DNA of 43,023 nt from Chloroflexota bacterium (GCA_020161265.1 JAIUOC010000003.1:1-43023); one strand, 5' to 3'; positions 5,930-27,944 are shown, numbered from the stretch's first letter. The notes: a model not told the origin generated them from the sequence alone. Numbers and translations are program-made.

Positions 5930-6891
5930 GCGATGAGGCCACTTTGAAGATTAGCCTAATTATGAATCCAGCCTCAGGCACATCCGAGCAGGGTGCATTG
6001 CTACGTGAAACGCTTGCCCCAATGAGCGGCGTGAGCATCTTGACCACCGATGCTGCTGGCGATGGTGAGCGTTTGGCCCGCCAAGCAGTCGCCGATGGGG
6101 CTGAATTGGTTGTAGCGGCTGGCGGCGATGGCACGATCAACGAGGTTGTCAAAGGCTTGCTCGAAGCCGAACGACGGGTTCCATTGGGCATCATTCCGCT
6201 GGGCACTGGCAACGATTTGGCACGGACTTTGGCTTTGCCAATCGATCCATTAGAAGCTTGGAAATTGATTTTGGTTGGCGAACGGCGTAAGCTTGACGTA
6301 ATCGAGATTCGCACGCCGCGCGAATTGCATTATGCCTTGAATGTATCGGCGGGCGGGTTTAGTGGCCAACTCAACGAAGCCTTATCCAGCGAAGTCAAAT
6401 CGGCTTGGGGGCCGTTGGCCTATTTGCGGGGAGCCTTGGGTGTTTTGCCCGATTTGACCAGCTATCGCACGACAATTCAATACGATGATCAAGCCCCCGA
6501 GCAAGTTGATGCGCTGAATATTATTATTGCCAATGGCCGAACCGCTGCGGCAGGAGTGCAAGTTGCCCCGCTAGCCAACCCCGAAGATGGCTTACTCGAT
6601 GTAGTGATTGTGCATTATGGCTCGATTGTGCAGTTGGCAGGAGCGGCGGCACGCTTATTGGTCAATGGCAATTATCTAAATAGCGAGTTGGTCGAGTTGC
6701 GGCGAGCCAAAAAAGTGCAAGTTATCTCTGATCCTGAGATTTGGTTCAACGCTGATGGCGAATTAATTACCAATGAGCCAATTGTGTTTGAAGTGCTGCC
6801 CCAAGCCTTAGAAGTTGTGGTCGGCGCTGAGTATCAAGCCGTAATTGAGGATTCAGGGGCGAGGAGTCAGGGCTCAGGGATTAGCGTTTAG
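5926..6891 (+). CDS. Lipid kinase, diacylglycerol-kinase catalytic-domain family (YegS/BmrU/DagK-like)
   Basis: DAGK_cat signatures: NPASG, an AAGGDGTINEV loop and GIIPLGTGNDLAR. 321 aa is typical for this family. Confidence 0.75.
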   Translation: MSDEATLKISLIMNPASGTSEQGALLRETLAPMSGVSILTTDAAGDGERLARQAVADGAELVVAAGGDGTINEVVKGLLEAERRVPLGIIPLGTGNDLARTLALPIDPLEAWKLILVGERRKLDVIEIRTPRELHYALNVSAGGFSGQLNEALSSEVKSAWGPLAYLRGALGVLPDLTSYRTTIQYDDQAPEQVDALNIIIANGRTAAAGVQVAPLANPEDGLLDVVIVHYGSIVQLAGAAARLLVNGNYLNSELVELRRAKKVQVISDPEIWFNADGELITNEPIVFEVLPQALEVVVGAEYQAVIEDSGARSQGSGISV

Positions 6892-6960
6892 TGTTGCTTG
6901 ACAAGATATTCCTGAACCCTAGCCCCTAGTCGCTGGCCCCTCGATAAAAGGAGTTTTACG

Positions 6961-12056: not shown

Positions 12057-13940
12057 TTATTCGGTGGTTAGGTTTGGCAAATACATGCGGTTGGGCGTAC
12101 AGGTGTCGCTCGCCAAGAAGGCGATTGGCGATGAACCTAAGACTGTGCCTTGGTTATCACGGGCACGTACTTGGGCAAAACAATGGTCACTGTTAGTTAC
12201 TAGCGTGTTGGTTTCAAAGCTAGTTTTAGGGGTGGTATTTTGCAAACTCAAAGTTGCAGTGGTTGCTCCAGTGTACACCTGATAATCGGACACCTTGGTT
12301 GCACCATTCCAGCTATAGTAGAGGGTTGTGGTGTTGCCGTTGCTTTCGGGCACTAAGCTTGGCGGCCAAAGTGGCTCACCCTCCCATTCGAAGCGTTTCG
12401 CACGATAACTAACTGTTGGTGCAGCCGCCGTTAACTCAAAGACTGGCTCACCTTGTGAATTAAATTCAGTATACAGTGGGCGGGTGCTACCCCAACCAAC
12501 TCCGGTATTGCCATTGCTAAGGCGCTGGGCACTGCCCATGGCAATCCCATACTGATCGGGATTTGTGCGGAAACTCTTGACTAAACGGGCGGTTTTACGG
12601 GTTTCATCAAGCTGATATTCCATTGCCATCGAGAAGGCATCGGCGGCTGGCGGCAGGCTGTTCCAATTATTATAGAGCAGCAGATTACCGTTTTCCAAGC
12701 GTCGAATATCGTGCTGGTGGAAAAACCGTGGGCTATTTTCTAGAAATTGAAATTGATTGCCCTCGCCACCAAACCGCCACATTACCGCCCCTGTTTGGCG
12801 ATTGATTTTGGTAATCTCATCGGTATGGCGGCTAGAAATCAACCAATTGCCATCGCTATCAACGTCAATTGCATTGCCATGAATATAATCGACTGGAGCT
12901 GTGCCGAGCAGGCTATGGCTGGTATCATAAACTGGAATATGCTCGATTGAACGCCATTGGAATACGACATTGCCTGTTGTATCCAACTCTTGCAAGACCA
13001 ATTCGGTCAGGGTGGCGTTGGCTTCGCCGCCATAAGGGCTTAAATCATAGGGAATATTGGCGTAAATCATAAAAATGGCATGCCCATTGGGCTGAAGCAA
13101 AAATTCATGGTAATCGATTTGGTAGCCATTCCCAGCTTGATAACGCCCAACTTCTTGATAATGTTCGTTTAACACATGGTATCTGAAGGTCAGGCTATCG
13201 TAATAGGTTAGCCGATTCTCGGCAACTTTGCGAAAGTCGAGCAAGAAATTGCCTGGCCCACCGCCTTGATGATAGATCGGCGTTCCAGTGTTATCAACCA
13301 TCAGAATATAGCGATTTGGCGTGTAATTACTTTGCCACCGAAATGGGCTAACAAAAATATAGCCTGGCGTGTTACTGATTGCTAAAGTAACGGTTAATGG
13401 TGGCAGATTAAATGGCAATGTGCGCAGGGCTTGCTTCCCACCAGTCGGCGGCTCCGATTGTGGTTGATTGGCGCGATCGCTAGCAAGCTCGGTTTGAAGT
13501 CGCTTGGCCTGATCGGTTTGTTCGACCAAACGATCAACCACTTCAAACGACCAAGTTTGTTGATCAAGTTCAGCAATATCGTTGCTTTTGATCGATACCC
13601 GCACGGTTTCGCCAAGCGCAAATGAACTGGTCGGCTTAAAAATAACCGTGCGTTGATCGTCGGCTAGCACAACCTCGCCTGTATGCAAGCCGCTGCGTGA
13701 GCCAACAACTTGGAAATCCAGCGTTGCAACCGCAGCTTTGCTCAAGCTTGGCCCTAAGCGAATCGCGATCGTATTGGTGGGGTTGACCGCTTTGGAATAT
13801 GGGGCAGGGTTGCGATATTCGACCAGTGGGGCTGCTTGGGCAGGCTGGCGAGGGGAAAAGCTGAAACTCAGCACCACGATCAGGATGCAAAGACATCCAA
13901 ATAATTGTCGCATTGCTAGCTTCCTCCTTAGGCTAAGCAA
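12057..13940 (-). CDS. Secreted beta-propeller protein, arylsulfotransferase (ASST)-like
   Basis: N-terminal signal peptide with a hydrophobic core ...AQA. Motifs IDYHEFLLQPNGHAIFMIY and FFHQHDIRRLENGNLLLY resemble the ASST family. This is a weak, motif-level call. Confidence 0.4.
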   Translation of the reverse strand: MLSLRRKLAMRQLFGCLCILIVVLSFSFSPRQPAQAAPLVEYRNPAPYSKAVNPTNTIAIRLGPSLSKAAVATLDFQVVGSRSGLHTGEVVLADDQRTVIFKPTSSFALGETVRVSIKSNDIAELDQQTWSFEVVDRLVEQTDQAKRLQTELASDRANQPQSEPPTGGKQALRTLPFNLPPLTVTLAISNTPGYIFVSPFRWQSNYTPNRYILMVDNTGTPIYHQGGGPGNFLLDFRKVAENRLTYYDSLTFRYHVLNEHYQEVGRYQAGNGYQIDYHEFLLQPNGHAIFMIYANIPYDLSPYGGEANATLTELVLQELDTTGNVVFQWRSIEHIPVYDTSHSLLGTAPVDYIHGNAIDVDSDGNWLISSRHTDEITKINRQTGAVMWRFGGEGNQFQFLENSPRFFHQHDIRRLENGNLLLYNNWNSLPPAADAFSMAMEYQLDETRKTARLVKSFRTNPDQYGIAMGSAQRLSNGNTGVGWGSTRPLYTEFNSQGEPVFELTAAAPTVSYRAKRFEWEGEPLWPPSLVPESNGNTTTLYYSWNGATKVSDYQVYTGATTATLSLQNTTPKTSFETNTLVTNSDHCFAQVRARDNQGTVLGSSPIAFLASDTCTPNRMYLPNLTTE

Positions 13941-13982
13941 CCCACAACTGGGCTGCCTTAAGGTTTAAGCGAGCATCAAAGG

Positions 13983-14013
13983 GGCGATGCTCATAAAAAA
14001 ACAGGGCAGTTTG
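13983..14013 (-). terminator. Intrinsic terminator for the two-gene sensor-kinase operon (minus strand)
   Basis: cagggcag / ctgccctg stem (13990-14013). On the minus strand it is followed by TTTTTTT (plus-strand AAAAAAA at 13983-13989). Confidence 0.6.
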
Positions 14014-14030
14014 GGCTGCCCTGTTTGAAT

Positions 14031-16919
14031 TTATTTGTGTTGAGGGAGATAGACGTTGAAGGTTGTGCCTTCGCCGATCACGCTTTGCACCTCGATCGTG
14101 CCGCCATGCTCATCGACAATGCTTTTGGTAATTGCTAAGCCGAGGCCAGTCCCTTCAATTGGCGAATCAATATCACGCTTGACGCGATAGAAGCGCTCAA
14201 AAATATGCGGCAAAGAATCTTCGGGAATGCCCAAGCCGCTGTCTTGAATTTGTACATGCACCTTGGCATCACCATTGTTGGCACGAATCTGTACCTGCCC
14301 GCCGCTTGGTGTGTATTTGATTGCATTTGAGAGAATATTGGTAAACACCTGGCGCATCCGCGAGGGATCGGCCACCAAAGGCAAACTGGGCGGAATTTCA
14401 GGCTGGACGCTGATTTGACCCATTTTGGCCCGCAGTTTTAGCTCGTCGATGACTTCGCGCAACACCACCGCCAAATCAGTTTCTTGCGGCGAAATGCCAA
14501 TGCCTGCTTCGATTTTGCCCAAATCGAGCAAATCGCTGATCAAGGCGGTCATTGCGCCTGTATTGCGCACAACTGCTTGCAAGGCATCGCGCTGCATCTC
14601 ATTGACCGTGCCCATATGCCCGTCGGCAACCAATTGGGCATAGCCTTGAATTGCGGTTAGCGGCGACTTGAGGTCGTGCGAAACCATCGAAACAAAGCGA
14701 CTCTTGATTTGGTCTAGCTCTTTGAAATGGGTAATATCCTGCAAAACGATCACTTGGCCACCCAAGGAGCTGTTTTGCAATGGCGCAGTATTAACCGCAT
14801 AATAGCGGTTGCTGATGGCAATTTCTTTGCTTTCGTGATCTTCGCGGCGGGCCAGCATTGCCAACATCGGGAAGAAGGTCAGCAAGGGTTGATTGACCAA
14901 GCGACTATTGGAAACGCCCGCGATCGCGCCGGCGGCTGGGTTGGCCACCACAATTTGGCCTTCATCAGTCAACAAAATGCCGTCGCTGACCGATTCAATC
15001 ACTGCTGCCAAGAGCGTGCGCTCCTCGGATGCTGTGACATACAGCCGCGCACTTTCCATCGCTACTGCTGCTTGGCCTGCCAAGGCTGTGAGCAATTGGC
15101 GCTCGTAGGCATCAAAGGCATCACGGCGCTCATCGGCGGCAATCAACAACCCATTGATCCCATCACCTAACATCAAGGGCACGCCAATCCAGCTTTCGCC
15201 CAAGGGTTCTTCGTTATTGACTAATAGTTCAATTTGGCTGCCAGCCGAGGTCAACAGCACCGGCTCTTGATCATTCAGAGCGGCGCTAATCGGCCCCAAC
15301 TTCAACAATGGCTGTTCTTGACCGTTAATCAAGGAAACCAAGGGCAACGTGCCTTGTTTATCATCGACATGCAGCAATGCCACCATCGAAGCATCGAGCA
15401 TTTCGGCACAGCGATAAGCCACTTTGCGGGCTACTTCCAGCGGGTCAAGCGAGCTAGCCAATTCGCGGCTGGTCGAATTTAAGCCCTCAAGATCGAATAC
15501 CCGCTGCTCTAGCTCGGCAAACAAATTGGCATTTTCAATCGCGACAGCTGCTTGAGCCGAAACCGAGCGCACCAATTCCAAATCGGCAGCACTAAAATGG
15601 TCGATGCGTGGGTGCGTTAAGGTCATCACGCCAAGCACTTGATCTTCGCGCAACAAGGGCACGGCCAAGGCCGAACGTACTCGACCACGAGTTGAGGGCA
15701 ATTCAACCCAGCGTTTATCAACCCGCACATCGGCAATTCGCGCTGCTTCGCGCTGGCGAAAAACCCAGCCCGAAAGCCCGGCTTGCAACAGCGCCGCTGC
15801 TACCGATTCAGTCACCGATTGATCCATGCCATAACGCGCAACGATCCGCTGGGTCGTGCGGCCATCTTGCGATGAAATGATGATGCTACCACGTTCAGCG
15901 TTGACTGCTGCCACCGTGTGTTGAATAATTCGCGAAAGCAATTGATCGGGGTCAAGCGAGCTAGCCAACTCGCGGCTGATGCCATAGAGCAAGCGCAAGC
16001 GGTCGCGTTCCTCGCGGACTGCATTGAACAAGCGCGTATTGACCAAGGCCATGCTCAAGGCATTGCCCAACGAAATGAGAAATGGTGGCGACCAAGCTTG
16101 AGTTTTGCGGCTTGAGCCAACCAAGACCAGCGACATAAGCGCTTGTGGCCCGGCATCGAGTGGCAATGCGCCCCAAGCGACTTTGCCCCCAACGCTACTA
16201 CACAGACTTTGCAGCAATTCATAGGGCAGTTCGGCCAGCCATGGTGGACGATCTTCCCAAACGATCGTGGCTTTGCTCAGCGGGCTGGGCGGAAATAATT
16301 CGGCTAATTGTTGAATAAGTTGCTCATTCAGGCCAACGTGTCGCCATAAATGCCAGCGCATGCCATTTTCAGCGGCGGTGTAGAGCAAGGCCACTTGTGC
16401 GCCAGTTGATTCGGCGATTGCGCTCAAGGTGGCATCAGCCATCGCAACTGGCTCCAGCGAACGCCCCATTTGGCGAGCGATTGCGGCAATTGCTGAAAGC
16501 TCGGCGGTGCGCTGACCATCAGCCCGTCGCTTGGAAACCGCCGCCGAAGCTCGATTCAAGGCTGCTTGCACCGTTGGCAACGAAAAGGGCTTCAAAATAT
16601 AATCGTAAGCCCCTAAGCGCAGCGCACGGGTGGCACTTTCCAGCGAACCATAGCCAGTCATGACGATAATCGGCATGTCTGGGCGATTCTCGCGCACCCA
16701 TTGCAACACCGTATAGCCATCAACATCAGGCATGGTGACATCAGTCAGCACGACATCAACGTCGCTTGCTTGGAGCGTGGCAATGCCCGCAGCACCCCCA
16801 ACCGCCGTGGTTACGCTGTAGCCTTGCCCTTCCAATAACAACCGCAACTGGCCACTTAAGCGTGGCTCGTCATCGACCACCAAGATCTGTAATGGCAACT
16901 CATTCATCGGATTAACCAA
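14031..16919 (-). CDS. Hybrid sensor: N-terminal receiver (REC) - GAF x3 - PAS - histidine kinase (HisKA + HATPase_c)
   Basis: REC: ILVVDDEP...DVVLTDVTMPDVDG...ILKPF. HisKA: KSRFVSMVSHDLKSPLTAIQGY. HATPase: GTGLGLAITKSIVDEHGGTIEV. Confidence 0.85.
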   Translation of the reverse strand: MVNPMNELPLQILVVDDEPRLSGQLRLLLEGQGYSVTTAVGGAAGIATLQASDVDVVLTDVTMPDVDGYTVLQWVRENRPDMPIIVMTGYGSLESATRALRLGAYDYILKPFSLPTVQAALNRASAAVSKRRADGQRTAELSAIAAIARQMGRSLEPVAMADATLSAIAESTGAQVALLYTAAENGMRWHLWRHVGLNEQLIQQLAELFPPSPLSKATIVWEDRPPWLAELPYELLQSLCSSVGGKVAWGALPLDAGPQALMSLVLVGSSRKTQAWSPPFLISLGNALSMALVNTRLFNAVREERDRLRLLYGISRELASSLDPDQLLSRIIQHTVAAVNAERGSIIISSQDGRTTQRIVARYGMDQSVTESVAAALLQAGLSGWVFRQREAARIADVRVDKRWVELPSTRGRVRSALAVPLLREDQVLGVMTLTHPRIDHFSAADLELVRSVSAQAAVAIENANLFAELEQRVFDLEGLNSTSRELASSLDPLEVARKVAYRCAEMLDASMVALLHVDDKQGTLPLVSLINGQEQPLLKLGPISAALNDQEPVLLTSAGSQIELLVNNEEPLGESWIGVPLMLGDGINGLLIAADERRDAFDAYERQLLTALAGQAAVAMESARLYVTASEERTLLAAVIESVSDGILLTDEGQIVVANPAAGAIAGVSNSRLVNQPLLTFFPMLAMLARREDHESKEIAISNRYYAVNTAPLQNSSLGGQVIVLQDITHFKELDQIKSRFVSMVSHDLKSPLTAIQGYAQLVADGHMGTVNEMQRDALQAVVRNTGAMTALISDLLDLGKIEAGIGISPQETDLAVVLREVIDELKLRAKMGQISVQPEIPPSLPLVADPSRMRQVFTNILSNAIKYTPSGGQVQIRANNGDAKVHVQIQDSGLGIPEDSLPHIFERFYRVKRDIDSPIEGTGLGLAITKSIVDEHGGTIEVQSVIGEGTTFNVYLPQHK

Positions 16920-18546
16920 TCAACAATTCATCGGAATCAAGATCGGGCGATTGGCTGCGTTGGGCTGCAACCGGAATGCGCAAGGTAAAGTTCGAGCCTT
17001 TATCCACGATGCTCTCTACCGAAATTGCGCCGCCAACTTGTTGCAAAATACCATAAACAACTGAAAGCCCAAGCCCCGTTCCCGTCACACCTTTAGTGCT
17101 AAAGAATGGCTCAAAAATACGTTCGCGATGTTCGGGAGGAATCCCAATTCCGCTATCTTCAACATTGACAAAAATTTGACCCTTTTGATGGGCCGTGCGA
17201 ATGGTCAATTTGCCCCCATCGGGCATCGCATCAATCGCATTGCGCACCAAATTGATCAAAACTTGCTTACAAGCATCGCTGCTAATGTTTGGCGCTGGCA
17301 GATCGGTCGCCAACTCCTGATACAGTTTAACATTGGCTTTATCAAGTTGTGGTTTGGTGATGTGCATCAGTGAAATGATCAAATGATTGAGATCAGGTGG
17401 CACACCATCGTTATTGGGCTGATAGAAATTCACCAAGGTATAGAGCAACCGCGCAATCCGCGCCACTTCTTCATCTAGCCCTTGCACCAGATCGCCAAGC
17501 GCCGTGCCAGGGGTGTGTTGTTGCGCCACCAACTCCAAGCCTGAGCGAATAATCGCCAGTGGATTGTTGATTTCGTGGGCTAGCGAAGCCGCCATGCGCC
17601 CCATGCCTGATAATTTTTCAGCTTCAACCAAACGACCTTGGGTTTCGCGCAATGCGCTGTAGGTGCGGGCGTTGTGCAAGGCAATCGAGGCATAGTCGGC
17701 CAGCATCTGCATCAAGCGCTCATCACCTTCATCAAAATTGCGGCGATGGGTTGTCGCAGCGACGGTCAGCACGCCCAAGGCTTCAGTCCCAACCAATAAC
17801 GGCACCATGAGCACAGCCTGGGCCAAATAATTAGCTTGCACCCGAATCCCATCGCGCTCGGAATTGATCCGAATTGGTTTGTTGGTTTTAATGGTGCGCG
17901 TTGCCAGTTCATAATCGGTGTGTTTGCTTAGCTCGCGCAAATGCAATGGGTTAATATTGTGTGAGGCTCGCACAACCAACTGATTATCATCAATTAATTG
18001 CACAAAGCCTTCATCGGCATTCGAAAGAAAGACCGAGGCTTCAACAATTCGTTCAAGCAAATTGCTGGCATCAAGTTGGGCAGTTACCGCCTTACCAACC
18101 CGATGCAAAACCGTTAATTGGCGCACTTGGCCTTGTAATTGCCCAAGCAAGATTTCTTTTTCACGTTGCAAACGCCACTCGCGTAGCGCCCGATCAATCG
18201 CCTGAGCAACATCTTGCGGCTCAAAAGGCTTGATCAAATAATCGCGCACGCCCATTTTGAAGGCCGTTACGGCGATGCGTTCGGAACCTTCGGCGGTCAT
18301 CAGCAAAATTGGCACGGTGTTGCCATCGGTGCGCAGCTTACGCAGCAAATCCAACCCAGTGGTATCAGGCAACTGATAATCGAGCAAAATGAGGTGCGGA
18401 TGATGTTGGGTAATCGCGTTTAGCCCATTTCGCCCAGTTTCAGCCAACACGACCTGATAGCCCAGCGAACGCAATTGAGCCTGAAGTTTGACCCGAATTG
18501 CTTCGCTATCGTCGATCACTAGAATCGTTTCTTGACCACTTGCCAT
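16912..18546 (-). CDS. Hybrid sensor: N-terminal receiver - coiled coil - GAF - histidine kinase
   Basis: REC: ILVIDDSE...LILLDYQLPDTTG...LIKPF. HisKA: ASLAHEINNPLAII. HATPase: GTGLGLSVVYGI. It overlaps the downstream gene by 8 nt. Confidence 0.85.
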   Translation of the reverse strand: MASGQETILVIDDSEAIRVKLQAQLRSLGYQVVLAETGRNGLNAITQHHPHLILLDYQLPDTTGLDLLRKLRTDGNTVPILLMTAEGSERIAVTAFKMGVRDYLIKPFEPQDVAQAIDRALREWRLQREKEILLGQLQGQVRQLTVLHRVGKAVTAQLDASNLLERIVEASVFLSNADEGFVQLIDDNQLVVRASHNINPLHLRELSKHTDYELATRTIKTNKPIRINSERDGIRVQANYLAQAVLMVPLLVGTEALGVLTVAATTHRRNFDEGDERLMQMLADYASIALHNARTYSALRETQGRLVEAEKLSGMGRMAASLAHEINNPLAIIRSGLELVAQQHTPGTALGDLVQGLDEEVARIARLLYTLVNFYQPNNDGVPPDLNHLIISLMHITKPQLDKANVKLYQELATDLPAPNISSDACKQVLINLVRNAIDAMPDGGKLTIRTAHQKGQIFVNVEDSGIGIPPEHRERIFEPFFSTKGVTGTGLGLSVVYGILQQVGGAISVESIVDKGSNFTLRIPVAAQRSQSPDLDSDELLIG

Positions 18547-18829: not shown

Positions 18830-19660
18830 TTACATCACTAAATTATCAATTAAACGGGTTTTGCCGATGCGCACTGCTAGCGATACCAACGCGCCCTGCT
18901 GATCGATCGTGGTTAGTTCTTGTAAACTGCGTGGATCGGCGATGCTAACATAATCGATTTGGGCTAGTGGCTCTTGGGCCAGCGTTTCCAACATCAATTG
19001 GCGAATAGCCTCAGCATCGGTTTGGCCTGCGACATAGGCGGTTTGAGCGGCTGTTAACGCTCGATATAGCACTGGAGCGGCTGCGCGTTGCTCAGCATTC
19101 AGGTAACTATTGCGGCTACTCATCGCCAAACCATCGGCCTCACGAATCGTCGGGGCGATGACTACTTCTACAGGCATGGCTAAATCGCGCACAAATTGGC
19201 GAATTACCACGGTTTGTTGGGCATCTTTTTGGCCAAAATAGGCTTTGGTTGGCTGAACGACATTAAATAGTTTGGTCACAACCGTGGCTACGCCGCGAAA
19301 ATGGCCTGGTCGGCGAGCACCCTCAAGCGGAGCTGTCACCCCTTCGACTTCAACATAACTGCTAAATCCCGCTGGATAAATTTCCTCAACGCTGGGCATC
19401 CAGACCAAATCACAACCAGCCGCTTCCAACAACGCGAGGTCGCGCGGCGTATCTCGTGGATAGCTGGCAAAATCTTCGTTGGGGCCAAACTGGGTGGGAT
19501 TGACAAAAATCGAGGCGATGGACACCCCGTTTTCGGCTTTGGCTTGTTGGACTAAGCTCAAATGCCCAGCATGTAAAAAGCCCATGGTTGGTACAAAACC
19601 AACCTCAGCCCACTGGCGACGCGCCGCCCGAACTTCTTCGATCGTTGTTACAACTTGCAT
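18830..19660 (-). CDS. panC: Pantoate--beta-alanine ligase
   Basis: TMGFLHAGHLSLV (HIGH-like), FGQKDAQQ and SSRNSYL motifs. ATG 19660 has GAGGAA 6 nt upstream. The track ORF is extended 12 codons at the 5' end. Confidence 0.9.
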   Translation of the reverse strand: MQVVTTIEEVRAARRQWAEVGFVPTMGFLHAGHLSLVQQAKAENGVSIASIFVNPTQFGPNEDFASYPRDTPRDLALLEAAGCDLVWMPSVEEIYPAGFSSYVEVEGVTAPLEGARRPGHFRGVATVVTKLFNVVQPTKAYFGQKDAQQTVVIRQFVRDLAMPVEVVIAPTIREADGLAMSSRNSYLNAEQRAAAPVLYRALTAAQTAYVAGQTDAEAIRQLMLETLAQEPLAQIDYVSIADPRSLQELTTIDQQGALVSLAVRIGKTRLIDNLVM

Positions 19661-19699
19661 GTTCAGTTCCTCATCCACAAAAACGCTTGCTAACAAATA

Positions 19700-20300
19700 T
19701 CTTAATTCAATCTAGCTGAAAGCGCCAAATTGCCGATTTTGTAACGGGAATTTTTAATTTATACCAAATTATGCCTAACATGTTGATGATATCAAATAGC
19801 TTTTTTTGATTGAAACTTACTGAATTGTCGCTATCGGTATGCTATAGATCTGGATATTTTATTAAAAAAATCTAAAAAATTAAGTTGCGTTAATTATTTA
19901 ACTATGTTAGCATCATGTATATATGAACAAATTTGCATGAATATAGAAGTATTCCAATGATTGTAATAAGTTTCTATTGATGCAATTTGTTAAAGCATGA
20001 ATTGATAAAAATGATTATTTCAAGCCTAGTCAGAATTTATTAAGCCTCATTCTTGGTTAAATTAACCTAAGCTTGACTCGAATTTTGATTGAATTAATCA
20101 TTCGATTGTCTAAATTTATTCATGCTGGTACTGACTTAGAAACGATGGATTGAACATTATTTCTAAGATTTAGTTCGATTTGTACTGAATAATTTATCTC
20201 GTCATTTCATTATTCCTGCTATTCAGTGCTCTCTTTTTTTAGGCATGATTTTTAATGATTGTTAAGAATTTGCCGATTAGTTTAATTGTTGTGCTGCGCC
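19700..20300. other. AT-rich (roughly 30 % GC by eye) non-coding island between divergent panC and the pectate lyase gene
   Basis: No ORF of 60 aa or more on either strand. Only 5-18-codon ATG...stop reading frames occur, and A/T tracts are abundant. The rest of the window is about 52 % GC. Confidence 0.6.
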
Positions 20301-20390
20301 ACAGCGTTGCAACGTGGTCGCTGGGGAATCGAAACATAGCTGGATGTGAGTTGTAATTGGGAGCGGTCTCAAAACCTGTCAAGCATTGTA

Positions 20391-20590
20391 GGGGTCAGGG
20401 GCTAGGATTCAGGGGTCAGTAAGTGTAGAACATAGGGATATGGCTATGGGCGCTAGGCGATCGGAATATGCTTTGAGTTTGCATAAGTTATCGATCCTGT
20501 GGACAAAAGCTTATAGTCAATTTTTCTTCGCGATCTTCGTGTGCTTCGTGGTTGCAATCATCCTGACCCCTGATCCCTGACGGCTGATCC
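20391..20590. repeat. About 200-bp imperfect palindromic repeat element immediately upstream of the pectate lyase gene
   Basis: Left arm ggggtcaggggctaggattcaggggtcag (20391-20419), then gaacatag, ggctatggg and cttcgcgatcttcgtgtgcttcgtgg modules. Right arm cctgacccctgatccctgacggctgatcc (20562-20590). Confidence 0.55.
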
Positions 20591-20610
20591 CTAAAATTAG
20601 GAGTTTACCA

Positions 20611-22047
20611 ATGAAATTATCAATTGCCCGACGTTGGGTTATTGCCACCGGCTTAGCCACCGCCTTGATTGGCGTAATCCAAAGCCCAATCACCAATGCC
20701 CAAAGTGGCCTAAGCTGCCAAGTTAATTATGCGGTTACCAATCAATGGGGTAGCGGTTTTCAAGCCGATGTGGTCGTGCGCAACACCGGAGCCAGCGTGA
20801 TCAATGGCTGGACAGTTGCTTGGAGTGCCGCCAGCGGCCAGCAAGTTGGCCAAATGTGGAATGCAACCTTTACCCAAAGTGGCAGCCAAGTCAGTGCTAA
20901 AAATGTTGATTGGAACGCGAGCATCGCCGCTGGTGGCAGCCAAAGTTTTGGCTTTACCGCTACCACGACTGGTAGCTTGGCCGTGCCCAGCGGCTTTACG
21001 GTTAATGGCGTAAGTTGTGGCGGCAGCATTAGCCCAACCGCCACCCGCACGCCAGCCGCGACTGCCACCCGCACGCCAGCCGCGACTGCCACCCGCACGC
21101 CAGCTGCAACTGCTACCCGTACTCCAATTGCCACGGCTACCGTCGTTCCAACCAATCCACCGGTCAGCAATGGCTTGATTGGCTGGGCCACGGTTGCTGG
21201 TTCGGGCTTGAGCACAACCACTGGTGGCGCTGGCGGCAGCACAGTTACCGCAGCCAACTTTACTGAATTACAAAACTACGCCAAATCATCATCACCCATG
21301 ATTATCAAGTTCTCAGGCACAATGCAAGGCACACTGACGGTTGCCTCGAACAAAACGATCCTCGGTAGTAACGGAGCCTTGATCCAAGGTAATGTCAAAA
21401 TCTCAGGCGCTCAAAATATTATTTTGCAAAATTTTGCAATCAACGGTAATAGCTGCTCAAGCTACGATAATTGCCGCGCTGGCAGCGATGCCTTGGGGAT
21501 TAGCAATTCGCACCATATTTGGGCCGACCACCTGACGATTACCAATGGCCAAGATGGCAACTTTGATATCAACAATGGCTCGGATTTCATCACGGTTTCG
21601 TGGAGCAAATTCGGCTATACCACCAACAAAGAGCATCGTTTCTCAAACTTGATTGGTAGCTCAGACGATGCAGCCTCGACCGATAGCGGTAAATTGAACG
21701 TGACCTTCCATCATAACTGGTGGTTTGGCGGGGCAATGCAGCGTATGCCACGCACGCGCTTCGGCAAAATTCACGTATTCAATAATTTGTACACCACCAC
21801 GGGCAACGATTATTGCGTTAGCTCAGGCTATCAATCCAAAGTGTTGCTCGAAAATAATGCCTTCATTGGGGTCAACACGCCGCACCGCTTGCACGATGGC
21901 GATCTCAAGGCTTTAGGCAACCTCTACCAAAACACCAGCGGCGACCAAATTAGCACTGGCGTTGCTTTCACTCCGCCCTACAGCTATAGCGCCGAAGCCG
22001 CTAGCTCGCTCAGCAGTTCAGTCCAGGCTGGCGCAGGGGCGAAGTAA
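20611..22047 (+). CDS. Secreted CBM2-linker-pectate lyase (PL1-like)
   Basis: Signal peptide; CBM2a (CQVNYAVTNQWGSGFQADVVVRNTG...VNGVSCGG); (TPAATATR)x4 linker; lyase motifs IWADH, NGQDGNFDI and QRMPRTRFG. AGGAG lies 8 nt upstream of ATG. Confidence 0.8.
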   Translation: MKLSIARRWVIATGLATALIGVIQSPITNAQSGLSCQVNYAVTNQWGSGFQADVVVRNTGASVINGWTVAWSAASGQQVGQMWNATFTQSGSQVSAKNVDWNASIAAGGSQSFGFTATTTGSLAVPSGFTVNGVSCGGSISPTATRTPAATATRTPAATATRTPAATATRTPIATATVVPTNPPVSNGLIGWATVAGSGLSTTTGGAGGSTVTAANFTELQNYAKSSSPMIIKFSGTMQGTLTVASNKTILGSNGALIQGNVKISGAQNIILQNFAINGNSCSSYDNCRAGSDALGISNSHHIWADHLTITNGQDGNFDINNGSDFITVSWSKFGYTTNKEHRFSNLIGSSDDAASTDSGKLNVTFHHNWWFGGAMQRMPRTRFGKIHVFNNLYTTTGNDYCVSSGYQSKVLLENNAFIGVNTPHRLHDGDLKALGNLYQNTSGDQISTGVAFTPPYSYSAEAASSLSSSVQAGAGAK

Positions 22048-22050
22048 TAC

Positions 22051-22232
22051 GAGGGGATCAGGGGCTAGGATTCAGGGATCAGGGGTTAGAACATAGAACA
22101 TAGAGCAGAGAACATAGCATTAGCCTTCATGTTCTTAGTGGTTTCAATCGTTCTAGCCCTAACACCTGATCCCTGAATCCTCAAGAGTAGTTTCAATTGA
22201 CCTGACCCCTAGCCCCTGATCCCTGACCCCTC
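22051..22232. repeat. Nested imperfect palindromic repeat element between the two lyase genes
   Basis: Outer arms 22053-22070 / 22201-22230, inner arms ggattcagggatcaggggttag (22067-22088) / ctaacacctgatccctgaatcc (22159-22180), and a central gaacatag x3. The left arm is 27/29 identical to 20391-20419. Confidence 0.6.
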
Positions 22233-22252
22233 AACAAAGGAGTACCCAAACC

Positions 22253-24574
22253 ATGAACTATCGCTGGCGAATATGCCTGCTATTAATTGCAATAATACTG
22301 AGTAGTTTGAGTTATACCAACGCCAATGCCCAAACTGGCCTCAGCTGCCAAGTGAATTATGCAATCACCAACCAATGGGGCGGCGGTTTTCAAGCCGATG
22401 TGGTGGTGCGCAACACCGGAACCAGCGTGATCAACGGCTGGACAGTTGCTTGGAGTGCCGCCAGCGGCCAGCAAATTGGCCAAATGTGGAATGCAACCTT
22501 TACTCAAAGTGGCACGCAAGTTAGTGCCAAAAATGTTGATTGGAATGCCAATATCGCCGCTGGTGGCAGCCAAAGCTTTGGCTTTACCGCTACCACGACT
22601 GGTAGTTTGGCCGTGCCCAGCAGTTTTACGGTCAATGGCGTAACTTGTGGCGGCAGCGTCAGTCCTACGGCAACCACTCCAGCGGCAACAGCCACCCGCA
22701 CGCCAACCAGTGTGCCAACCGCAACCCGTATTGCGACTAGCATACCAACCGCAATCAATGCGGCAACCAGTGTGCCGACGGCAACGCGCACACCAACCAG
22801 CGTGCCCACGGCCACCCCAAGCACAACCACAGGCCGCCAAATGGAAAAACTCAATCGCGGGATTATCAGCGTGCGCCAAGGCAGCAATAATTTTGTGAGC
22901 TGGCGGATGTTTGGCACTGATCCTAGCTCGATTGGCTTTAACGTCTATCGTGGTACCACCAAAATTAATTCTAGCCCAATTACCAATGCTACCAGCTATT
23001 TGGATAGCGGCGCGGCGGCCAATAGCGTTTACACCGTGCGACCTGTGATCGATGGGGTTGAACAAACTGCCTCAGAAAACTCGCTCAATTTCGCCAATGG
23101 CTATCTTGATGTGGCCTTGCAAATTCCGACTGGTGGCACAACCCCCGATGGTGTGGCCTACACCTACACCGCCAATGATGCCAGCGTCGGCGACCTCGAT
23201 GGCGATGGGCAATATGAAATTGTGCTGAAATGGGACCCAACCAATTCCAAAGATAATTCGCAATCTGGCTATACTGGCAATGTCTATCTTGATGGCTACA
23301 AATTGAACGGAACCCGTTTATGGCGGATTGATTTGGGCCGTAATATTCGGGCTGGAGCGCATTACACCCAATTTATGGTCTACGATTTGGATGGCGATGG
23401 GAAGGCCGAAGTTGCCGCCAAAACTGCCGATGGCACGCGTGATAATGCTGGCACCGTGATTGGCAACGCCAGCGCTGATTATCGCAACTCCAGCGGCTAC
23501 ATTCTTGCTGGCCCCGAATATTTGACCGTGTTCAATGGCCAAACTGGAGTGATTCGCTCGACCGTCAATTATGATCCTGCGCGGGGCACGGTTTCGTCGT
23601 GGGGCGATAGCTATGGCAACCGCGTTGATCGCTTTTTGGGTGGAATTGCCTACCTCGATGGTCAACGCCCGAGCCTGATTATGAGCCGCGGCTACTACAC
23701 CCGCAGCGTAATCGCCGCTTGGGATTTTCGCAATGGCAGCCTGACCAAGCGCTGGACGTTTGATAGCAATGTGGCGGGCAGCCAATATGCTGGGCAAGGC
23801 AACCATAGCCTTTCGATCGCCGATGTTGATCAAGATGGCAAAGATGAGATTATCTTTGGAGCCATGACGATTAATGATAATGGTCAGCCGCTGTGGAACA
23901 CCCGCAATGGTCACGGCGATGCCATGCACGTCGGCGATCTTGATCCAAGTCGGGCTGGCTTAGAAGTCTTCAAAGTCAGCGAAGATTCATCAAAGCCTAG
24001 TTCGTGGTTTGCTGATGCCCGCACAGGCCAAATTTTGTGGCAAACAGCGGCGGGCGGCGATAATGGGCGCGGCGTTTCGGGCGATATTTGGTCGGGCAGC
24101 CCAGGCGCTGAATCGTGGTCATCGATGGATAGCAATTTGCGTAGCGTTAGCGGGGCAACCCTTGGCCGCAAACCATCAGCCACCAACTTCTTGATTTGGT
24201 GGGATGGTGACCCAGTGCGCGAATTGCTCGATGCCACCCGCATCGACAAATATGGCACATCGGGCGATACACGCTTGTTGACTGGCAGTAACGTTAGCTC
24301 TAACAACAGCACCAAATCGACCCCAGCGCTCAGCGGCGATATTTTGGGCGATTGGCGCGAAGAGGTGATTTGGCGCACCAGCGATAACACCGCACTGCGG
24401 ATTTATTCGACTAGCACCAGTACCAACCGCCGCATCTTCACCTTGATGCACGATGCTCAATATCGGGTGGCAATTGCTTGGCAAAACACCGCCTACAATC
24501 AACCACCGCATCCCAGCTTTTTCTTGGGCGATGGCATGAGCAACCCACCGCAACCGAATATCTACTTACGCTAA
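22253..24574 (+). CDS. Secreted CBM2-linker-rhamnogalacturonan lyase-like (PL11/YesW-type beta-propeller)
   Basis: Signal peptide; a CBM2 about 90 % identical to the upstream gene's; Pro/Thr linker; repeated Ca-binding-loop-like DLDGDGQYE, DLDGDGKAEVAAKTADG and DVDQDGKDE motifs typical of PL11 propellers. Confidence 0.65.
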   Translation: MNYRWRICLLLIAIILSSLSYTNANAQTGLSCQVNYAITNQWGGGFQADVVVRNTGTSVINGWTVAWSAASGQQIGQMWNATFTQSGTQVSAKNVDWNANIAAGGSQSFGFTATTTGSLAVPSSFTVNGVTCGGSVSPTATTPAATATRTPTSVPTATRIATSIPTAINAATSVPTATRTPTSVPTATPSTTTGRQMEKLNRGIISVRQGSNNFVSWRMFGTDPSSIGFNVYRGTTKINSSPITNATSYLDSGAAANSVYTVRPVIDGVEQTASENSLNFANGYLDVALQIPTGGTTPDGVAYTYTANDASVGDLDGDGQYEIVLKWDPTNSKDNSQSGYTGNVYLDGYKLNGTRLWRIDLGRNIRAGAHYTQFMVYDLDGDGKAEVAAKTADGTRDNAGTVIGNASADYRNSSGYILAGPEYLTVFNGQTGVIRSTVNYDPARGTVSSWGDSYGNRVDRFLGGIAYLDGQRPSLIMSRGYYTRSVIAAWDFRNGSLTKRWTFDSNVAGSQYAGQGNHSLSIADVDQDGKDEIIFGAMTINDNGQPLWNTRNGHGDAMHVGDLDPSRAGLEVFKVSEDSSKPSSWFADARTGQILWQTAAGGDNGRGVSGDIWSGSPGAESWSSMDSNLRSVSGATLGRKPSATNFLIWWDGDPVRELLDATRIDKYGTSGDTRLLTGSNVSSNNSTKSTPALSGDILGDWREEVIWRTSDNTALRIYSTSTSTNRRIFTLMHDAQYRVAIAWQNTAYNQPPHPSFFLGDGMSNPPQPNIYLR

Positions 24575-24602
24575 ATTGATCTAGCCCAAATTTAAGTATC
24601 AA

Positions 24603-24629
24603 AGGCCGAGGAATTTCCTCGGCCTTTTT
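24603..24629 (+). terminator. Strong intrinsic terminator after the RG-lyase gene
   Basis: aggccgagga (24603-24612), loop att, tcctcggcct (24616-24625), then TTTTAT. Confidence 0.8.
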
Positions 24630-24634
24630 ATCAA

Positions 24635-24664
24635 CTTGACAGAGTTTATGCTTAACGGCACAAT
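24635..24664 (+). promoter_or_regulatory. Candidate sigma-70-type promoter for the GH3 gene (TTGACA-N18-CACAAT)
   Basis: ttgaca at 24635-24640 and cacaat at 24659-24664. This is sequence-motif only. Confidence 0.3.
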
Positions 24665-24685
24665 TGCAAGCGCTTACAGAATATC

Positions 24686-27028: not shown

Positions 27029-27160
27029 AATATAAAACCAGTTCTGGTTCACGAAGAGAGAATAGGCTATAGGCTATAGGCTATAGGCTATTGGTTTTCA
27101 ACAAATGTTCCGCCAGCCAATAGCCTTCAGCCTCAAGCCATAATACCTCTGCGCTTCTGG
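27014..27160. repeat. Composite repeat element: GAACATAGAGCATAG, CACGAAGAGAGAATA, (GGCTATAG)x4, CCAATAGCC, ATAATACCTCTGCGCTTCT
   Basis: ttcacgaagagagaataggctataggctataggctataggctattgg (27049-27097) is nearly identical to 28640-28678, which has one fewer GGCTATNG unit. The GH3 stop codon lies inside the GAACATAG module. Confidence 0.6.
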
Positions 27161-27260
27161 ATCAAAACTTGATGATTGTCTTTGTAAGCTTTCTGTAAGA
27201 TTTGATACAAATAAATCTATCTATACTAGATGGGCAAGAATCGATCTTTTGGAGGATAGT

Positions 27261-27944
27261 ATGCGCCATCTACGTTGGGTCACGCTCTGTATGCTTGGTA
27301 TGATTTTGCTGTCGGCCTGTGGGAGTGCAGCCAATCCTACTACCCCATCATCACCTGTGGTTGCGGCTACTGCTACCACCGCCGCAATTGCGGCCACCAG
27401 TGTCACCGATTCAGGCAATGGCAACCAGTCACCAACGGTAATTCCAGCAACAGTTAATGACCCTGAACCAACGGTTGTACCAACAGTCGCGAATCTTGCA
27501 GCTTGGCAAAGATTGCCATTAATTAATGCGCGAACTGGTGAATCGTTTACCCTCGCAGATTTTTATGGCAAGACCATCTACGTTGAGCCAATGGCAACGT
27601 GGTGCAGCAATTGTCGTAAACAACTTACGATTGTGGCTGAAACTCAGGCCCAACTGACTAATCCCGATGTTGTATTTATTGGGCTAAGTGTTGAAACCGA
27701 TCTTGCGGCAAATGATCTTGCAGCCTATGCTGATGAAGCTGGGTTTGATTGGCTTTTTGCCGTGAGCACTCCCGAGCTGTTGCGCGAATTAACCGCAGTC
27801 TTTGGTCGAACCATCACCAATCCTCCAGCAACGCCACATTTTATTATTCGCCCTGATGGAACGACGACTGAACTCAGCACTGGAATCGAACCAAGCGATG
27901 TGTTACTCAGTGCGCTTCAAGCAGCAGGAGCAACCGCACCATGA
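27261..27944 (+). CDS. Lipoprotein thiol:disulfide oxidoreductase, TlpA/ResA (redoxin) family
   Basis: Lipobox LLSAC; thioredoxin-like WCSNCRKQ active site. GGAGG lies 5 nt upstream of ATG 27261. Confidence 0.75.
   Translation: MRHLRWVTLCMLGMILLSACGSAANPTTPSSPVVAATATTAAIAATSVTDSGNGNQSPTVIPATVNDPEPTVVPTVANLAAWQRLPLINARTGESFTLADFYGKTIYVEPMATWCSNCRKQLTIVAETQAQLTNPDVVFIGLSVETDLAANDLAAYADEAGFDWLFAVSTPELLRELTAVFGRTITNPPATPHFIIRPDGTTTELSTGIEPSDVLLSALQAAGATAP

What the first reader, a model, noticed from the sequence alone, without database searches (positions are those of the whole stretch)
19700..20300. About 600-bp AT-rich, ORF-free island in a 950-bp divergent intergenic region (panC <-> pectate lyase)
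GC drops to roughly 30 % with many A/T tracts, against about 52 % elsewhere. There is no ORF of 60 aa or more on either strand, only 5-18-codon fragments. The island ends abruptly at a GC-rich patch containing the perfect palindrome CGTTGCAACG (20305-20314). It could be a horizontally acquired remnant, a curved-DNA or nucleoid-protein-bound regulatory region for the secreted lyase genes, or it could host an unannotated ncRNA.
Basis: seen in the sequence. Interest (0 to 1): 0.55.

Follow-up and report, generated by a model that had tools for sequence, protein, structure and literature searches.

The report
Control region of a pectin-degradation operon
The AT-rich gap is real, and it is best read as the conserved promoter and long untranslated leader of a Herpetosiphon pectin-degrading operon whose first gene has been lost here; that is ordinary regulatory DNA, with a possible new leader RNA hairpin.

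Summary
Window 19691-20290 has 27% GC against 51% for the window (z -7.5). It is the only stretch of 300 nt or more below 36% GC in 43 kb, and it has no ORF over 26 aa.

The window comes from a Herpetosiphon genome. Seven orthologous loci carry the same island wherever the pectin genes sit next to panC. Two lineages lack those genes and have a 362-bp spacer instead (45% GC in H. geysericola).

In H. giganteus, H. llansteffanensis, strain NSE202 and MAG L090 the island runs from panC to the start region of a pectin methylesterase gene (pme). In the window lineage that gene is deleted. The island therefore ends "abruptly" at the former start codon (20276).

Conservation is patchy:
- a panC promoter block;
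- a core (19856-19995) more conserved than panC itself, holding phased A-tracts and an extended -10 promoter pointing toward the lyase genes;
- a 66-nt hairpin (19926-19991) with two compensatory pairs;
- a U-run and ribosome-site block.

Evidence against other readings: no known RNA family, no conserved peptide, no island-wide curvature signal, no DnaA-box excess and no sign of foreign origin. The palindrome CGTTGCAACG is a chance match. Transcription is inferred, not shown.

The parts
18830..19660 (-). panC (pantoate-beta-alanine ligase), left flank
   Evidence: Pfam PF02569 E 8e-110. 100% identical to P0001 and 98% to the H. aurantiacus-type protein P0003. The ATG is at 19660..19658.
19691..20290 (.). 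AT-rich island as a whole (maximal AT-scoring segment, GC 0.273)
19699..19728 (-). Candidate panC promoter: -35 TTGGCG (19728..19723), 18-nt spacer, -10 TAAGAT (19704..19699)
   Evidence: The block 19689-19750 is conserved across clades. As far as about 19728 it is also conserved in H. geysericola, which lacks the rest of the island. The hexamers were read from the sequence, so this is inference.
19751..19855 (.). Poorly conserved AT-rich spacer between the two promoter regions
   Evidence: Cross-clade identity is 0.37-0.58, and there is a 19-nt deletion in H. giganteus/NSE202.
19864..19879 (+). Two A-tracts (A7 19864-19870, A6 19874-19879) about 10 bp apart, UP-element-like, upstream of the core promoter
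   Evidence: Almost invariant in 8 sequences. Lies in the conservation peak of 0.85-0.95.
19885..19913 (+). Candidate rightward promoter: -35 TTGCGT (19885-19890), 17-nt spacer, extended -10 TGT-TAGCAT (19905-19913). Predicted transcription start about 19920.
   Evidence: Both hexamers and the TG are conserved in both clades (clade B has TTGCTT / TGC-TAGTAT). The only variable bases in the block lie between the -10 and 19922. The tool's minus-strand candidate (TATACA, 19921..19916) falls on those variable bases. No start site has been mapped.
19926..19991 (+). P1: conserved 66-nt imperfect hairpin at the predicted 5' end of the leader
   Evidence: RNAalifold gives 23 pairs. 98.4% of cells are paired against 34-47% when partners are slid. 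There are two compensatory pairs (A-U/G-C; G-C/G-U/A-U). 16 G-U cells favour the plus strand. 10 of 46 paired columns vary against 13 of 20 unpaired, Fisher p 0.0015. MFE is -16.0 kcal/mol with z -1.95.
19994..20001 (+). P2 5' arm (AGCAUGAA), candidate long-range helix
   Evidence: Pairs with 20119-20126. 90.6% of cells are paired, with two covarying positions. Caveat: the CAUG core is self-complementary.
20039..20057 (+). Short conserved block / 6-bp hairpin (AUUAAG...CUUGGU)
   Evidence: Conservation peak at 20035-20055. The alifold pairs show only G-U/A-U changes. Weak evidence.
20119..20126 (+). P2 3' arm (UUCAUGCU)
20182..20229 (+). Lineage-specific hairpin (GUACUGAAUA / UAUUCAGUGC, 28-nt loop) directly before the U-run
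   Evidence: MFE -9.7 kcal/mol, z -1.97. Other species have different hairpins here that are not in register and not adjacent to the U-run. A conserved terminator is therefore not supported.
20231..20275 (+). Conserved U-run and ribosome-site block (CTCTTTTTTTAGGC...TTTTTAAT...TTAAGAAT). In sister species it ends in AAGGA plus ATG of pme.
   Evidence: Conserved in all sequences that cover it. The Shine-Dalgarno is AAGGA in clade B and is degraded to AAGAA in the window.
20276..20384 (+). Remnant of the deleted pectin methylesterase gene (former ATG is now ATT at 20276-20278). Contains the chance palindrome 20305-20314.
   Evidence: The window sequence ATTAG-TTTAATTGTTGTG aligns with clade-B ATGAATCAATTTAATCGCCGTG, the start of a Tat-signal pectinesterase. 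Window 20357-20374 matches a site about 270 nt before the pme stop in four genomes (91-94% over 16-23 nt). Pairwise significance for 20300-20385 is weak (z 0.1-3.5).
20385..20597 (+). Inverted arrays of GGGKTCA heptamers (20385-20419 / 20563-20597) flanking 143 nt. This is the former pme-pel spacer.
   Evidence: Folds at -77.4 kcal/mol, z -3.0. It is 115 nt longer than in the H. aurantiacus-type locus.
20611..22047 (+). Secreted CBM2 + PL1 pectate lyase, now the first gene after the leader
   Evidence: Pfam PF00553 and PF00544. Shine-Dalgarno AGGAG lies upstream of the ATG.
22253..24574 (+). CBM2 + rhamnogalacturonan lyase (PL11), second gene
   Evidence: Pfam PF21348 E 7e-251.
24604..24629 (+). 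Intrinsic terminator closing the pectin module (GGCCGAGG-AATTT-CCTCGGCC + T5)
   Evidence: Read from the sequence. A remnant is retained next to panC in H. geysericola.

Best explanation
The island is the shared divergent control region between panC and a pectin-degradation operon (ancestrally pme-pel-rgl).

The first ~70 bp carry the panC promoter. After a poorly conserved spacer comes a strongly conserved rightward sigma-A-type promoter, with two phased A-tracts acting like an UP element, a weak -35 and an extended -10. It would start a roughly 355-nt A/U-rich leader.

The leader opens with a conserved 66-nt stem-loop, probably an mRNA-stabilising or regulator-binding element. It may also contain a long-range helix. 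It ends with a U-run and ribosome-binding block that, in sister species, directly abuts the start codon of a Tat-secreted pectin methylesterase.

In the window lineage that gene was deleted, leaving its first bases. The AT-rich non-coding DNA therefore runs straight into former coding sequence, and the leader is now fused to the pectate lyase gene through the old pme-pel spacer.

Shown: the composition, the synteny, the conservation pattern, the co-occurrence with the pectin genes and the loss of pme.
Inferred: the promoter assignment, the transcription start, the RNA nature of the hairpin and its role.
For: - Source organism: Herpetosiphon.
- The island (GC 0.29-0.35) is present in 7 orthologous loci that have the pectin genes. 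It is replaced by a 362-bp spacer in H. geysericola (45% GC) and in L096, which both lack them.
- Relative to H. geysericola, the window has one extra 4.9-kb segment, 19714-24607, made of island + pel + rgl.
- In clade B the island ends at the annotated pme ATG (three loci) or at its homologous position (L090). The window retains the homologous bases with ATG changed to ATT and AAGGA changed to AAGAA.
- Cross-clade identity is 0.70-0.95 over 19856-19995, against 0.80-0.83 for panC DNA and 0.2-0.5 elsewhere in the island.
- The promoter elements and A-tracts are conserved in both clades.
- P1 hairpin: 98.4% of cells paired, two compensatory pairs, G-U pairs favouring the plus strand, and variation concentrated in unpaired columns (p 0.0015).
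- P2 helix: 90.6% paired with two covarying pairs.
- The conserved columns are the most AT-rich (0.22-0.26), so much of the AT bias sits in the constrained elements.
Against: - There are no transcription data. No Herpetosiphon transcriptomics was found.
- The -35 matches only 3 of 6 positions, and the consensus scanner did not call this promoter.
- Thermodynamic support for P1 is modest (z -1.0 to -2.0), and in H. llansteffanensis the MFE fold is different.
- Only about five independent lineages are available, and each covariation is essentially one event. The structure was predicted from the same alignment on which the pairs were counted.
- A conserved DNA palindrome would give the same pairing counts.
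- A 355-nt leader is long, and a second promoter nearer the genes cannot be excluded.
- Similarity of 20300-20385 to pme is statistically weak.
Confidence: 0.65

Rival explanations
1. DNA-level regulatory platform. The AT-rich tract is bound along its length by a nucleoid-associated or silencing protein, or by several transcription factors, which keeps the pectinase genes off until induction. On this reading the conserved 'hairpin' is a palindromic operator rather than an RNA structure.
For: - AT-richness is kept (GC 0.32-0.36) even in columns whose sequence is not conserved. This is below the GC3 of flanking genes, 0.43-0.57.
- The palindrome lies just downstream of the promoter-like block.
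- H-NS binds extended regions of the pel regulatory regions in Dickeya and spreads along AT-rich DNA (PMC3378864).
Against: - There is no island-wide helical-phase AA/TT periodicity in any of six species.
- The compensatory A-T to G-C change and the many G-U (not C-A) positions in P1 fit RNA better than a protein-binding palindrome.
- 66 bp is far longer than typical operators.
- No H-NS-type silencer is known to me in Chloroflexota (my own knowledge).
- No LacI/cre-type operator like the one in front of the neighbouring GH3 gene occurs in the island.
Confidence: 0.17
2. A free-standing small RNA gene. The conserved promoter drives a roughly 70-320-nt non-coding RNA (P1, or P1 through the U-run at 20234-20240) that acts in trans, and the lyase genes have their own promoter.
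For: - A conserved promoter-like block is followed by the conserved hairpin.
- In the window lineage a 10-bp hairpin is followed directly by U7 (20182-20240).
- The core is retained in clade A even though pme is gone.
Against: - No terminator-like site is called on the plus strand of the island.
- In clade B the hairpins are not adjacent to the U-run, so a terminator is not conserved.
- In clade B the conserved U-run and ribosome-site block runs directly into the pme ATG with no room for another promoter.
- The element occurs only at this locus in 160 kb searched, and always with the pectin genes.
- There is no Rfam family.
Confidence: 0.1
3. A neutral, horizontally acquired or decaying insertion remnant with no function. 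It would be AT-rich because it is foreign or because unconstrained DNA drifts toward AT.
For: - Composition is very different from the genome.
- The segment is absent from two Herpetosiphon lineages.
- Part of the intergenic region really is a gene remnant (20276-20384).
Against: - Blocks are conserved above the level of the neighbouring coding gene across species whose panC DNA is only 80-83% identical.
- There is no tRNA, no integrase and no terminal direct repeats.
- The adjoining pel and rgl genes have native GC and GC3.
- H. geysericola keeps a remnant of the rgl terminator next to panC, pointing to deletion there rather than insertion elsewhere.
- Other intergenic DNA in the window does not drift below 0.36 GC.
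Confidence: 0.04
4. The island hides a small protein gene, or it is a replication origin.
For: - A 20-31-aa minus-strand ORF overlaps the core in six of eight sequences.
- Two one-mismatch DnaA-box-like 9-mers lie at 19671 and 20498.
Against: - The ORF has no start codon in the window or in L092, and about half of its residues change non-conservatively between species.
- DnaA-box-like sites number 8 in the window against 8.5 expected.
- There is no dnaA/dnaN nearby and no clear skew switch.
Confidence: 0.02

Closest known systems
Regulatory regions of the pel (pectate lyase) genes of Dickeya dadantii (PMC3378864)
   Same: An extended non-coding region upstream of secreted pectate lyase genes. 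In Dickeya, H-NS binds extended stretches of these regulatory regions, FIS also modulates pel expression, and the genes respond to supercoiling. The function controlled, pectin depolymerisation, is the same.
   Different: The phylum is unrelated (Chloroflexota) and there is no sequence similarity. No H-NS-type protein is known here. The island shows no helical-phase A-tract signal. Most of the conserved sequence lies downstream of the predicted start site, so control at the leader-RNA level is more likely.
5'-terminal stabiliser stem-loops of long bacterial leaders (E. coli ompA 5' UTR, B. subtilis aprE leader). This comparison rests on my own knowledge and was not checked in the paper library.
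   Same: A stem-loop begins a few nucleotides from the predicted 5' end of a long leader of a highly expressed secreted-protein gene. Such a hairpin would protect against 5'-end-dependent decay.
   Different: P1 is much longer (66 nt, 23 pairs). Its apical part is sequence-conserved, which suggests specific recognition. Neither the 5' end nor any half-life effect has been measured.
pan RNA motif (Rfam RF01749; PMC2864571)
   Same: A structured RNA found upstream of panB/panC operons. From my own knowledge, the phyla in which it occurs include Chloroflexi. It is an obvious candidate for a conserved element next to panC.
   Different: There is no match on either strand even at E up to 10. The predicted panC leader is only about 30 nt. 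The conserved structure points away from panC.
Transcription-attenuation leaders and riboswitches (hairpin plus U-run before the first gene)
   Same: A long structured leader. In the window lineage a hairpin is followed directly by U7 about 35 nt before the (former) start codon.
   Different: The hairpin is AU-rich with a 28-nt loop. In clade B the equivalent hairpins are not adjacent to the U-run. There is no known aptamer family and no ligand-pocket-like conserved junction.

Membership tests
Sigma-70/sigma-A promoter with UP element and extended -10 | -10 hexamer close to TATAAT, preceded by TGn | tested here: met
   TGT-TAGCAT at 19905-19913 (4 of 6 plus TG). Clade B has TGC-TAGTAT. Conserved in all 8 sequences.
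Sigma-70/sigma-A promoter with UP element and extended -10 | -35 hexamer close to TTGACA at 16-18 nt | tested here: inconclusive
   TTGCGT / TTGCTT is only 3 of 6, with a 17-nt spacer. It is conserved but falls below the scanner's threshold.
Sigma-70/sigma-A promoter with UP element and extended -10 | A/T-rich UP element at about -40 to -60 | tested here: met
   A7 at 19864-19870 and A6 at 19874-19879 are about 10 bp apart and nearly invariant.
Sigma-70/sigma-A promoter with UP element and extended -10 | Mapped transcription start | not testable with these tools
   No transcript data are available. No relevant papers were found.
Structured cis-regulatory leader RNA | Base pairs maintained through compensatory changes across species | tested here: inconclusive
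   P1 has 2 compensatory pairs among 23 and 98.4% of cells paired. P2 has 2 among 8. Only about five lineages are available, and the controls are favourable but not decisive.
Structured cis-regulatory leader RNA | Fold more stable than shuffled sequence | tested here: inconclusive
   z scores are -1.95, -1.06, -1.19 and -1.67 in four species.
Any Rfam family (including pan motif, riboswitches, T-box) | Covariance-model score at or above gathering threshold | tested here: not met
   There are 0 hits at gathering threshold in the whole window. Only eukaryotic snoRNA/miRNA noise appears at E 0.7-5 in 19600-20700.
Intrinsic terminator / attenuator in the leader | Stable G+C-rich stem immediately followed by a U-run, conserved in relatives | tested here: not met
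   The window has a 10-bp AU-rich stem plus U7. It is not called by the scanner. In clade B the hairpins end 10-30 nt before the U-run.
Horizontally acquired (xenogeneic) AT-rich island | Foreign composition of the associated genes, mobility genes, tRNA or direct repeats at the borders | tested here: not met
   pel and rgl have GC 0.53 and GC3 0.56-0.57. There is no tRNA, no integrase or transposase nearby and no border repeats.
Intrinsically curved DNA / nucleoid-protein nucleation region | A-tracts phased with the helical repeat along the region | tested here: not met
   AA/TT power at 9.5-11.5 bp is not above dinucleotide shuffles in 6 of 6 islands; the fraction of shuffles at least as high is 0.10-0.92. 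Only the two UP-like tracts are phased.
Intrinsically curved DNA / nucleoid-protein nucleation region | Protein occupancy | not testable with these tools
   This needs ChIP or footprinting.
Chromosomal replication origin | Cluster of DnaA boxes next to an AT-rich unwinding element, usually near dnaA/dnaN | tested here: not met
   8 one-mismatch boxes in 43 kb against 8.5 expected, with two of them in the panC-pel intergenic region just outside the island (19671, 20498). Neighbouring genes are unrelated to replication.
Small protein gene | ORF with a start codon conserved in all species and mostly synonymous or conservative change | tested here: not met
   the best candidate lacks a start in two sequences, and about 10 of 20 residues change non-conservatively.

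The most novel reading that the evidence does not exclude
The conserved leader (P1, P2 and the sequence-conserved apical loop) is a previously undescribed cis-regulatory RNA. It would be a riboswitch-like sensor of a pectin breakdown product, or the target of an RNA-binding regulator, controlling a pectinolytic operon in Chloroflexota. RNA-level control of polysaccharide use is essentially uncharted in that phylum.
Probability: 0.2. Interest if true: 0.55.

Novelty: new member of a known kind. Interest (0 to 1): 0.3.

Why it matters
The result turns an unexplained compositional anomaly into a concrete, testable map with four parts: two divergent promoters, a long leader with a conserved 5' hairpin, and a gene-loss scar. 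It shows that an abrupt composition boundary can mark a lost start codon. It also gives a first handle on how Herpetosiphon, a filamentous predatory and polysaccharide-degrading Chloroflexota genus with no published regulatory studies that I could find, controls secreted pectinases. If the hairpin proves to be a functional RNA, it would be a genus-specific addition to the catalogue of bacterial leader RNAs. Otherwise this is ordinary regulatory DNA.

Tried and rejected
Orthologues were obtained through the search for homologous proteins plus look-up of encoding contigs instead.
- Metagenome-contig scan with the most conserved 24-mer of the core: the only hit was a chance match inside an AT-rich coding sequence of an unrelated contig (L095).
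- PanC relatives at 70% identity (L097-L100): no synteny and no island.
- Covariance model of P1 (R1): it found only the orthologous copies in 160 kb, so this is not a repeated element.
- Rfam at gathering and at E up to 10: nothing credible.
- DnaA boxes: at chance level.
- Curvature periodicity: at chance level.
- Conserved small ORFs: rejected.
- Conserved terminator before the U-run: rejected, because the hairpins are not in register.
- LacI/cre-type operator like the one before the GH3 gene: none in the island.
- Direct repeat AATGATTGT..AA..TT (19956 and 20254): both copies lie in conserved blocks, but 12 of 100 shuffles give at least 2 matches, so it was left as an aside.
- Pairwise test of 20276-20392 against the pme 5' end: weak (z 0.1-3.5). 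Only the first ~25 nt and the 20357-20374 fragment are claimed as pme-derived.
- Literature: no Herpetosiphon transcriptome or pectinase-regulation study was found.

Full report
OBSERVATION

The stretch is real. GC is 0.25-0.31 in 200-nt windows across 19700-20300. The maximal AT-scoring segment is 19691-20290 (GC 0.273), in a window averaging 0.510. The 600-nt minimum lies 7.5 sd below the rest of the window, and no other stretch of 300 nt or more falls below 0.36. Other intergenic spacers in the window have GC 0.36-0.54.

The island sits in the 950-bp divergent spacer 19661-20610. On one side is panC (18830..19660, minus strand). On the other is a secreted CBM2 + PL1 pectate lyase (20611..22047), followed by a CBM2 + PL11 rhamnogalacturonan lyase and a GH3 enzyme. 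No ORF exceeds 26 aa inside it.

The palindrome CGTTGCAACG is at 20305-20314, but the window holds 32 perfect 10-nt palindromes against about 42 expected. The patch that follows the island is GC-normal rather than GC-rich.

SOURCE AND RELATIVES

PanC is 98% identical to the protein carried on a 6.35-Mb Herpetosiphon contig. It is 89-90% identical to PanC of H. geysericola, H. giganteus, H. llansteffanensis and strain NSE202. An identical copy of the region exists on a JGI metagenome contig.

Orthologous loci were fetched through exact-protein look-ups. I call two groups "clade A" and "clade B".
- Clade A (window, L082 H. aurantiacus-type, L092, L093) has the same arrangement as the window, with spacers of 834-949 bp.
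- Clade B (H. giganteus L087, NSE202 L091, H. llansteffanensis L089, MAG L090) has an additional gene, a 456-492-aa pectinesterase (PF01095 + Ricin-B). It lies between the spacer and the pectate lyase, and the spacer is 604-731 bp.

In all of these loci the spacer is AT-rich (GC 0.29-0.35).

H. geysericola (L086) and L096 have no pectinesterase, pectate lyase or rhamnogalacturonan lyase here. In L086 the GH3 gene faces panC across 362 bp of 45% GC, and L096 has the same 362-bp arrangement. A BLAST of the H. geysericola locus against the window shows one extra 4.9-kb segment in the window, 19714-24607, made of island + pel + rgl.

The perfect terminator that closes rgl in the window (24604-24629) survives in part next to panC in H. 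geysericola, where no gene precedes it. I therefore infer that H. geysericola lost the module, rather than the other species gaining it. PanC relatives at 70% identity show no synteny.

WHY THE ISLAND ENDS ABRUPTLY

In three clade-B loci the AT-rich DNA runs up to the annotated ATG of the pectinesterase gene. In L090 a one-base insertion moves the called start downstream. The protein begins MNQFNRRDFLRRLG, a Tat-type signal.

The conserved block in front of it is CTCTTTTTTTAGGC...TTTTTAAT...TTAAGGATTC.CCGATG. It is present in the window at 20231-20278, but with AAGGA changed to AAGAA and ATG changed to ATT. The next bases (TTTAATTGTTGTG) still align with the first codons of pme. Window 20357-20374 matches a site about 270 nt before the pme stop codon in four clade-B genomes. 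From 20385 onward the window aligns with the pme-pel spacer of clade B, including its heptamer repeats.

So the island's right edge is a former start codon. The gene behind it was deleted in clade A. Similarity of 20300-20385 to pme is statistically weak in pairwise tests, so I claim only the two flanking fragments as pme-derived.

ANATOMY FROM CONSERVATION

Cross-clade identity (alignment A3) is patchy.

(a) 19689-19750 scores 0.7-0.9. As far as about 19728 it is also conserved in H. geysericola. On the minus strand it reads TTGGCG-18 nt-TAAGAT, about 35 nt ahead of the panC ATG. This is the likely panC promoter.

(b) 19751-19855 scores 0.37-0.58 and contains a 19-nt indel. I treat it as spacer.

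(c) 19856-19995 scores 0.70-0.95, above panC coding DNA (0.80-0.83). It contains two nearly invariant A-tracts about 10 bp apart (19864-19870, 19874-19879). These are followed by TTGCGT, a 17-nt spacer and TGT-TAGCAT (clade B: TTGCTT and TGC-TAGTAT). That is an extended -10 promoter with an UP-like element, pointing toward the pectin genes. The only variable bases in the block lie between the -10 and about 19922, where a start site would fall. The best minus-strand candidate from the scanner places its -35 on exactly those variable bases.

(d) Short conserved patches occur at 20035-20055 and 20105-20126.

(e) The U-run and ribosome-site block lies at 20231-20275.

Conserved columns are the most AT-rich (GC 0.22-0.26). 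Unconserved columns still have GC 0.32-0.36 in every species, below the GC3 of flanking genes (0.43-0.57).

RNA STRUCTURE

RNAalifold on eight sequences predicts a 66-nt hairpin, P1 (window 19926-19991), with 23 pairs. The evidence for and against it is as follows.
- 98.4% of cells pair, against 34-47% when the 3' partners are slid.
- Two pairs change on both sides (A-U in clade A versus G-C in clade B; G-C/G-U/A-U).
- Only 3 of 500 column shuffles reach the observed covariation score.
- Sixteen cells are G-U, which would be A-C mismatches on the other strand, so a plus-strand RNA is favoured.
- Variation is concentrated in unpaired columns: 13 of 20 unpaired against 10 of 46 paired, p 0.0015.
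- Stability is only modestly better than shuffles (z -1.0 to -2.0), and H. llansteffanensis prefers another MFE fold.

A long-range helix P2 (19994-20001 with 20119-20126) is 90.6% paired with two covarying positions. Its CAUG core is self-complementary, which inflates the count.

Each species has a hairpin before the U-run. The window has GUACUGAAUA/UAUUCAGUGC directly followed by U7. These hairpins are not in register, and in clade B they are not adjacent to the U-run. A conserved attenuator is therefore not supported.

With about five independent lineages the RNA evidence is suggestive, not conclusive.

WHAT IT IS NOT

- Not a known RNA family: there is no Rfam family at gathering threshold in the window and only noise at E up to 10 in the region. 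That includes the pan motif, which occurs upstream of panB/panC operons.
- No tRNA.
- No conserved peptide: the best ORF lacks a start in two sequences and changes about half its residues non-conservatively.
- No excess of DnaA boxes.
- No helical-phase AA/TT periodicity above shuffles in any of six islands.
- Not a dispersed repeat: a covariance model of P1 finds only the orthologues in 160 kb.
- No mobility genes or border repeats, and the adjoining lyase genes have native composition.

MECHANISM

The best-supported reading is a divergent control region. It has a short panC promoter on the left. On the right is a conserved UP + extended -10 promoter that launches a roughly 355-nt A/U-rich leader, about 690 nt to pel in the window lineage after the loss of pme. 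The leader's 5'-proximal hairpin stabilises the message or recruits a regulator. The U-rich block next to the Shine-Dalgarno would serve translation initiation.

Composition, synteny, conservation and gene loss are shown. The promoter, the start site, the RNA nature of P1 and its function are inferred.

The main rival is a DNA-level platform for nucleoid-associated or specific DNA-binding proteins, as for the Dickeya pel genes, where H-NS binds extended regulatory regions (PMC3378864). It cannot be excluded without binding data.

VERDICT

This is a new member of a known kind: a promoter plus a long structured leader of a polysaccharide-utilisation operon. The neat extra is the gene-loss explanation for the sharp composition boundary. 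Interest is modest at 0.3. The most novel reading still open is a new cis-regulatory RNA for pectin use in Chloroflexota (probability about 0.2).

Noticed in passing
window 6849-6919; 20385-20419 with 20563-20597; 22054-22084 with 22171-22230: Inverted arrays of GGGKTCA-type heptamers occupy three intergenic spacers, with 16 hits against 3.5 expected. As RNA they fold into very long hairpins (-77 kcal/mol, z -3.0; -83 kcal/mol, z -7.2). The same repeats sit in the pme-pel and pel-rgl spacers of other Herpetosiphon species. They look like a genus-specific REP/BIME-like intergenic repeat family.
   Followed up: partly
window 24604-24678: After rgl there is a perfect intrinsic terminator (24604-24629). 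It is followed by TTGACA (24636-24641) and a LacI/cre-like palindrome TGCAAGCGCTTACA (24665-24678) in front of the GH3 gene. In H. geysericola the palindrome is perfect (TGCAAGCGCTTGCA). This suggests the GH3 gene has its own promoter and a LacI-family repressor site.
   Followed up: partly
window 27081-28613: Two genes (a Redoxin-like protein at 27249..27944 and a DsbD_2-like membrane protein at 27941..28606) are absent from the otherwise collinear H. geysericola locus. This is another small indel between species.
   Followed up: no
window 12057-18546 versus L086/L087/L089-L092: The flank on the other side of panC differs between lineages. The window, L082 and L093 have two hybrid histidine kinase/response regulator genes and an arylsulfotransferase-like gene. 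The other species and L092 have a shikimate-kinase-like gene and an ECF sigma factor cluster instead. panC therefore sits at a rearrangement-prone spot.
   Followed up: no
window 1962-2155: The spacer between the L11 and L1 ribosomal protein genes is also AT-rich (GC 0.356). It gave no Rfam ribosomal-leader hit at gathering threshold.
   Followed up: no
window 19956-19973 and 20254-20271: An 18-nt direct repeat (AATGATTGTAATAAGTTT / AATGATTGTTAAGAATTT) places a copy of the ribosome-site-proximal sequence in the apical 3' half of hairpin P1. Both copies lie in conserved blocks. This could be mimicry for a shared binding factor, but it is not statistically compelling: 12 of 100 shuffles give at least 2 matches.
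   Followed up: partly
L090 5250-5330 (minus strand): In the MAG L090 a one-base insertion after ATGAATCAA puts a stop codon in the pectinesterase signal-peptide frame. The gene is called 36 aa shorter and lacks the Tat signal. This is either an assembly homopolymer error or an incipient pseudogene.
   Followed up: no
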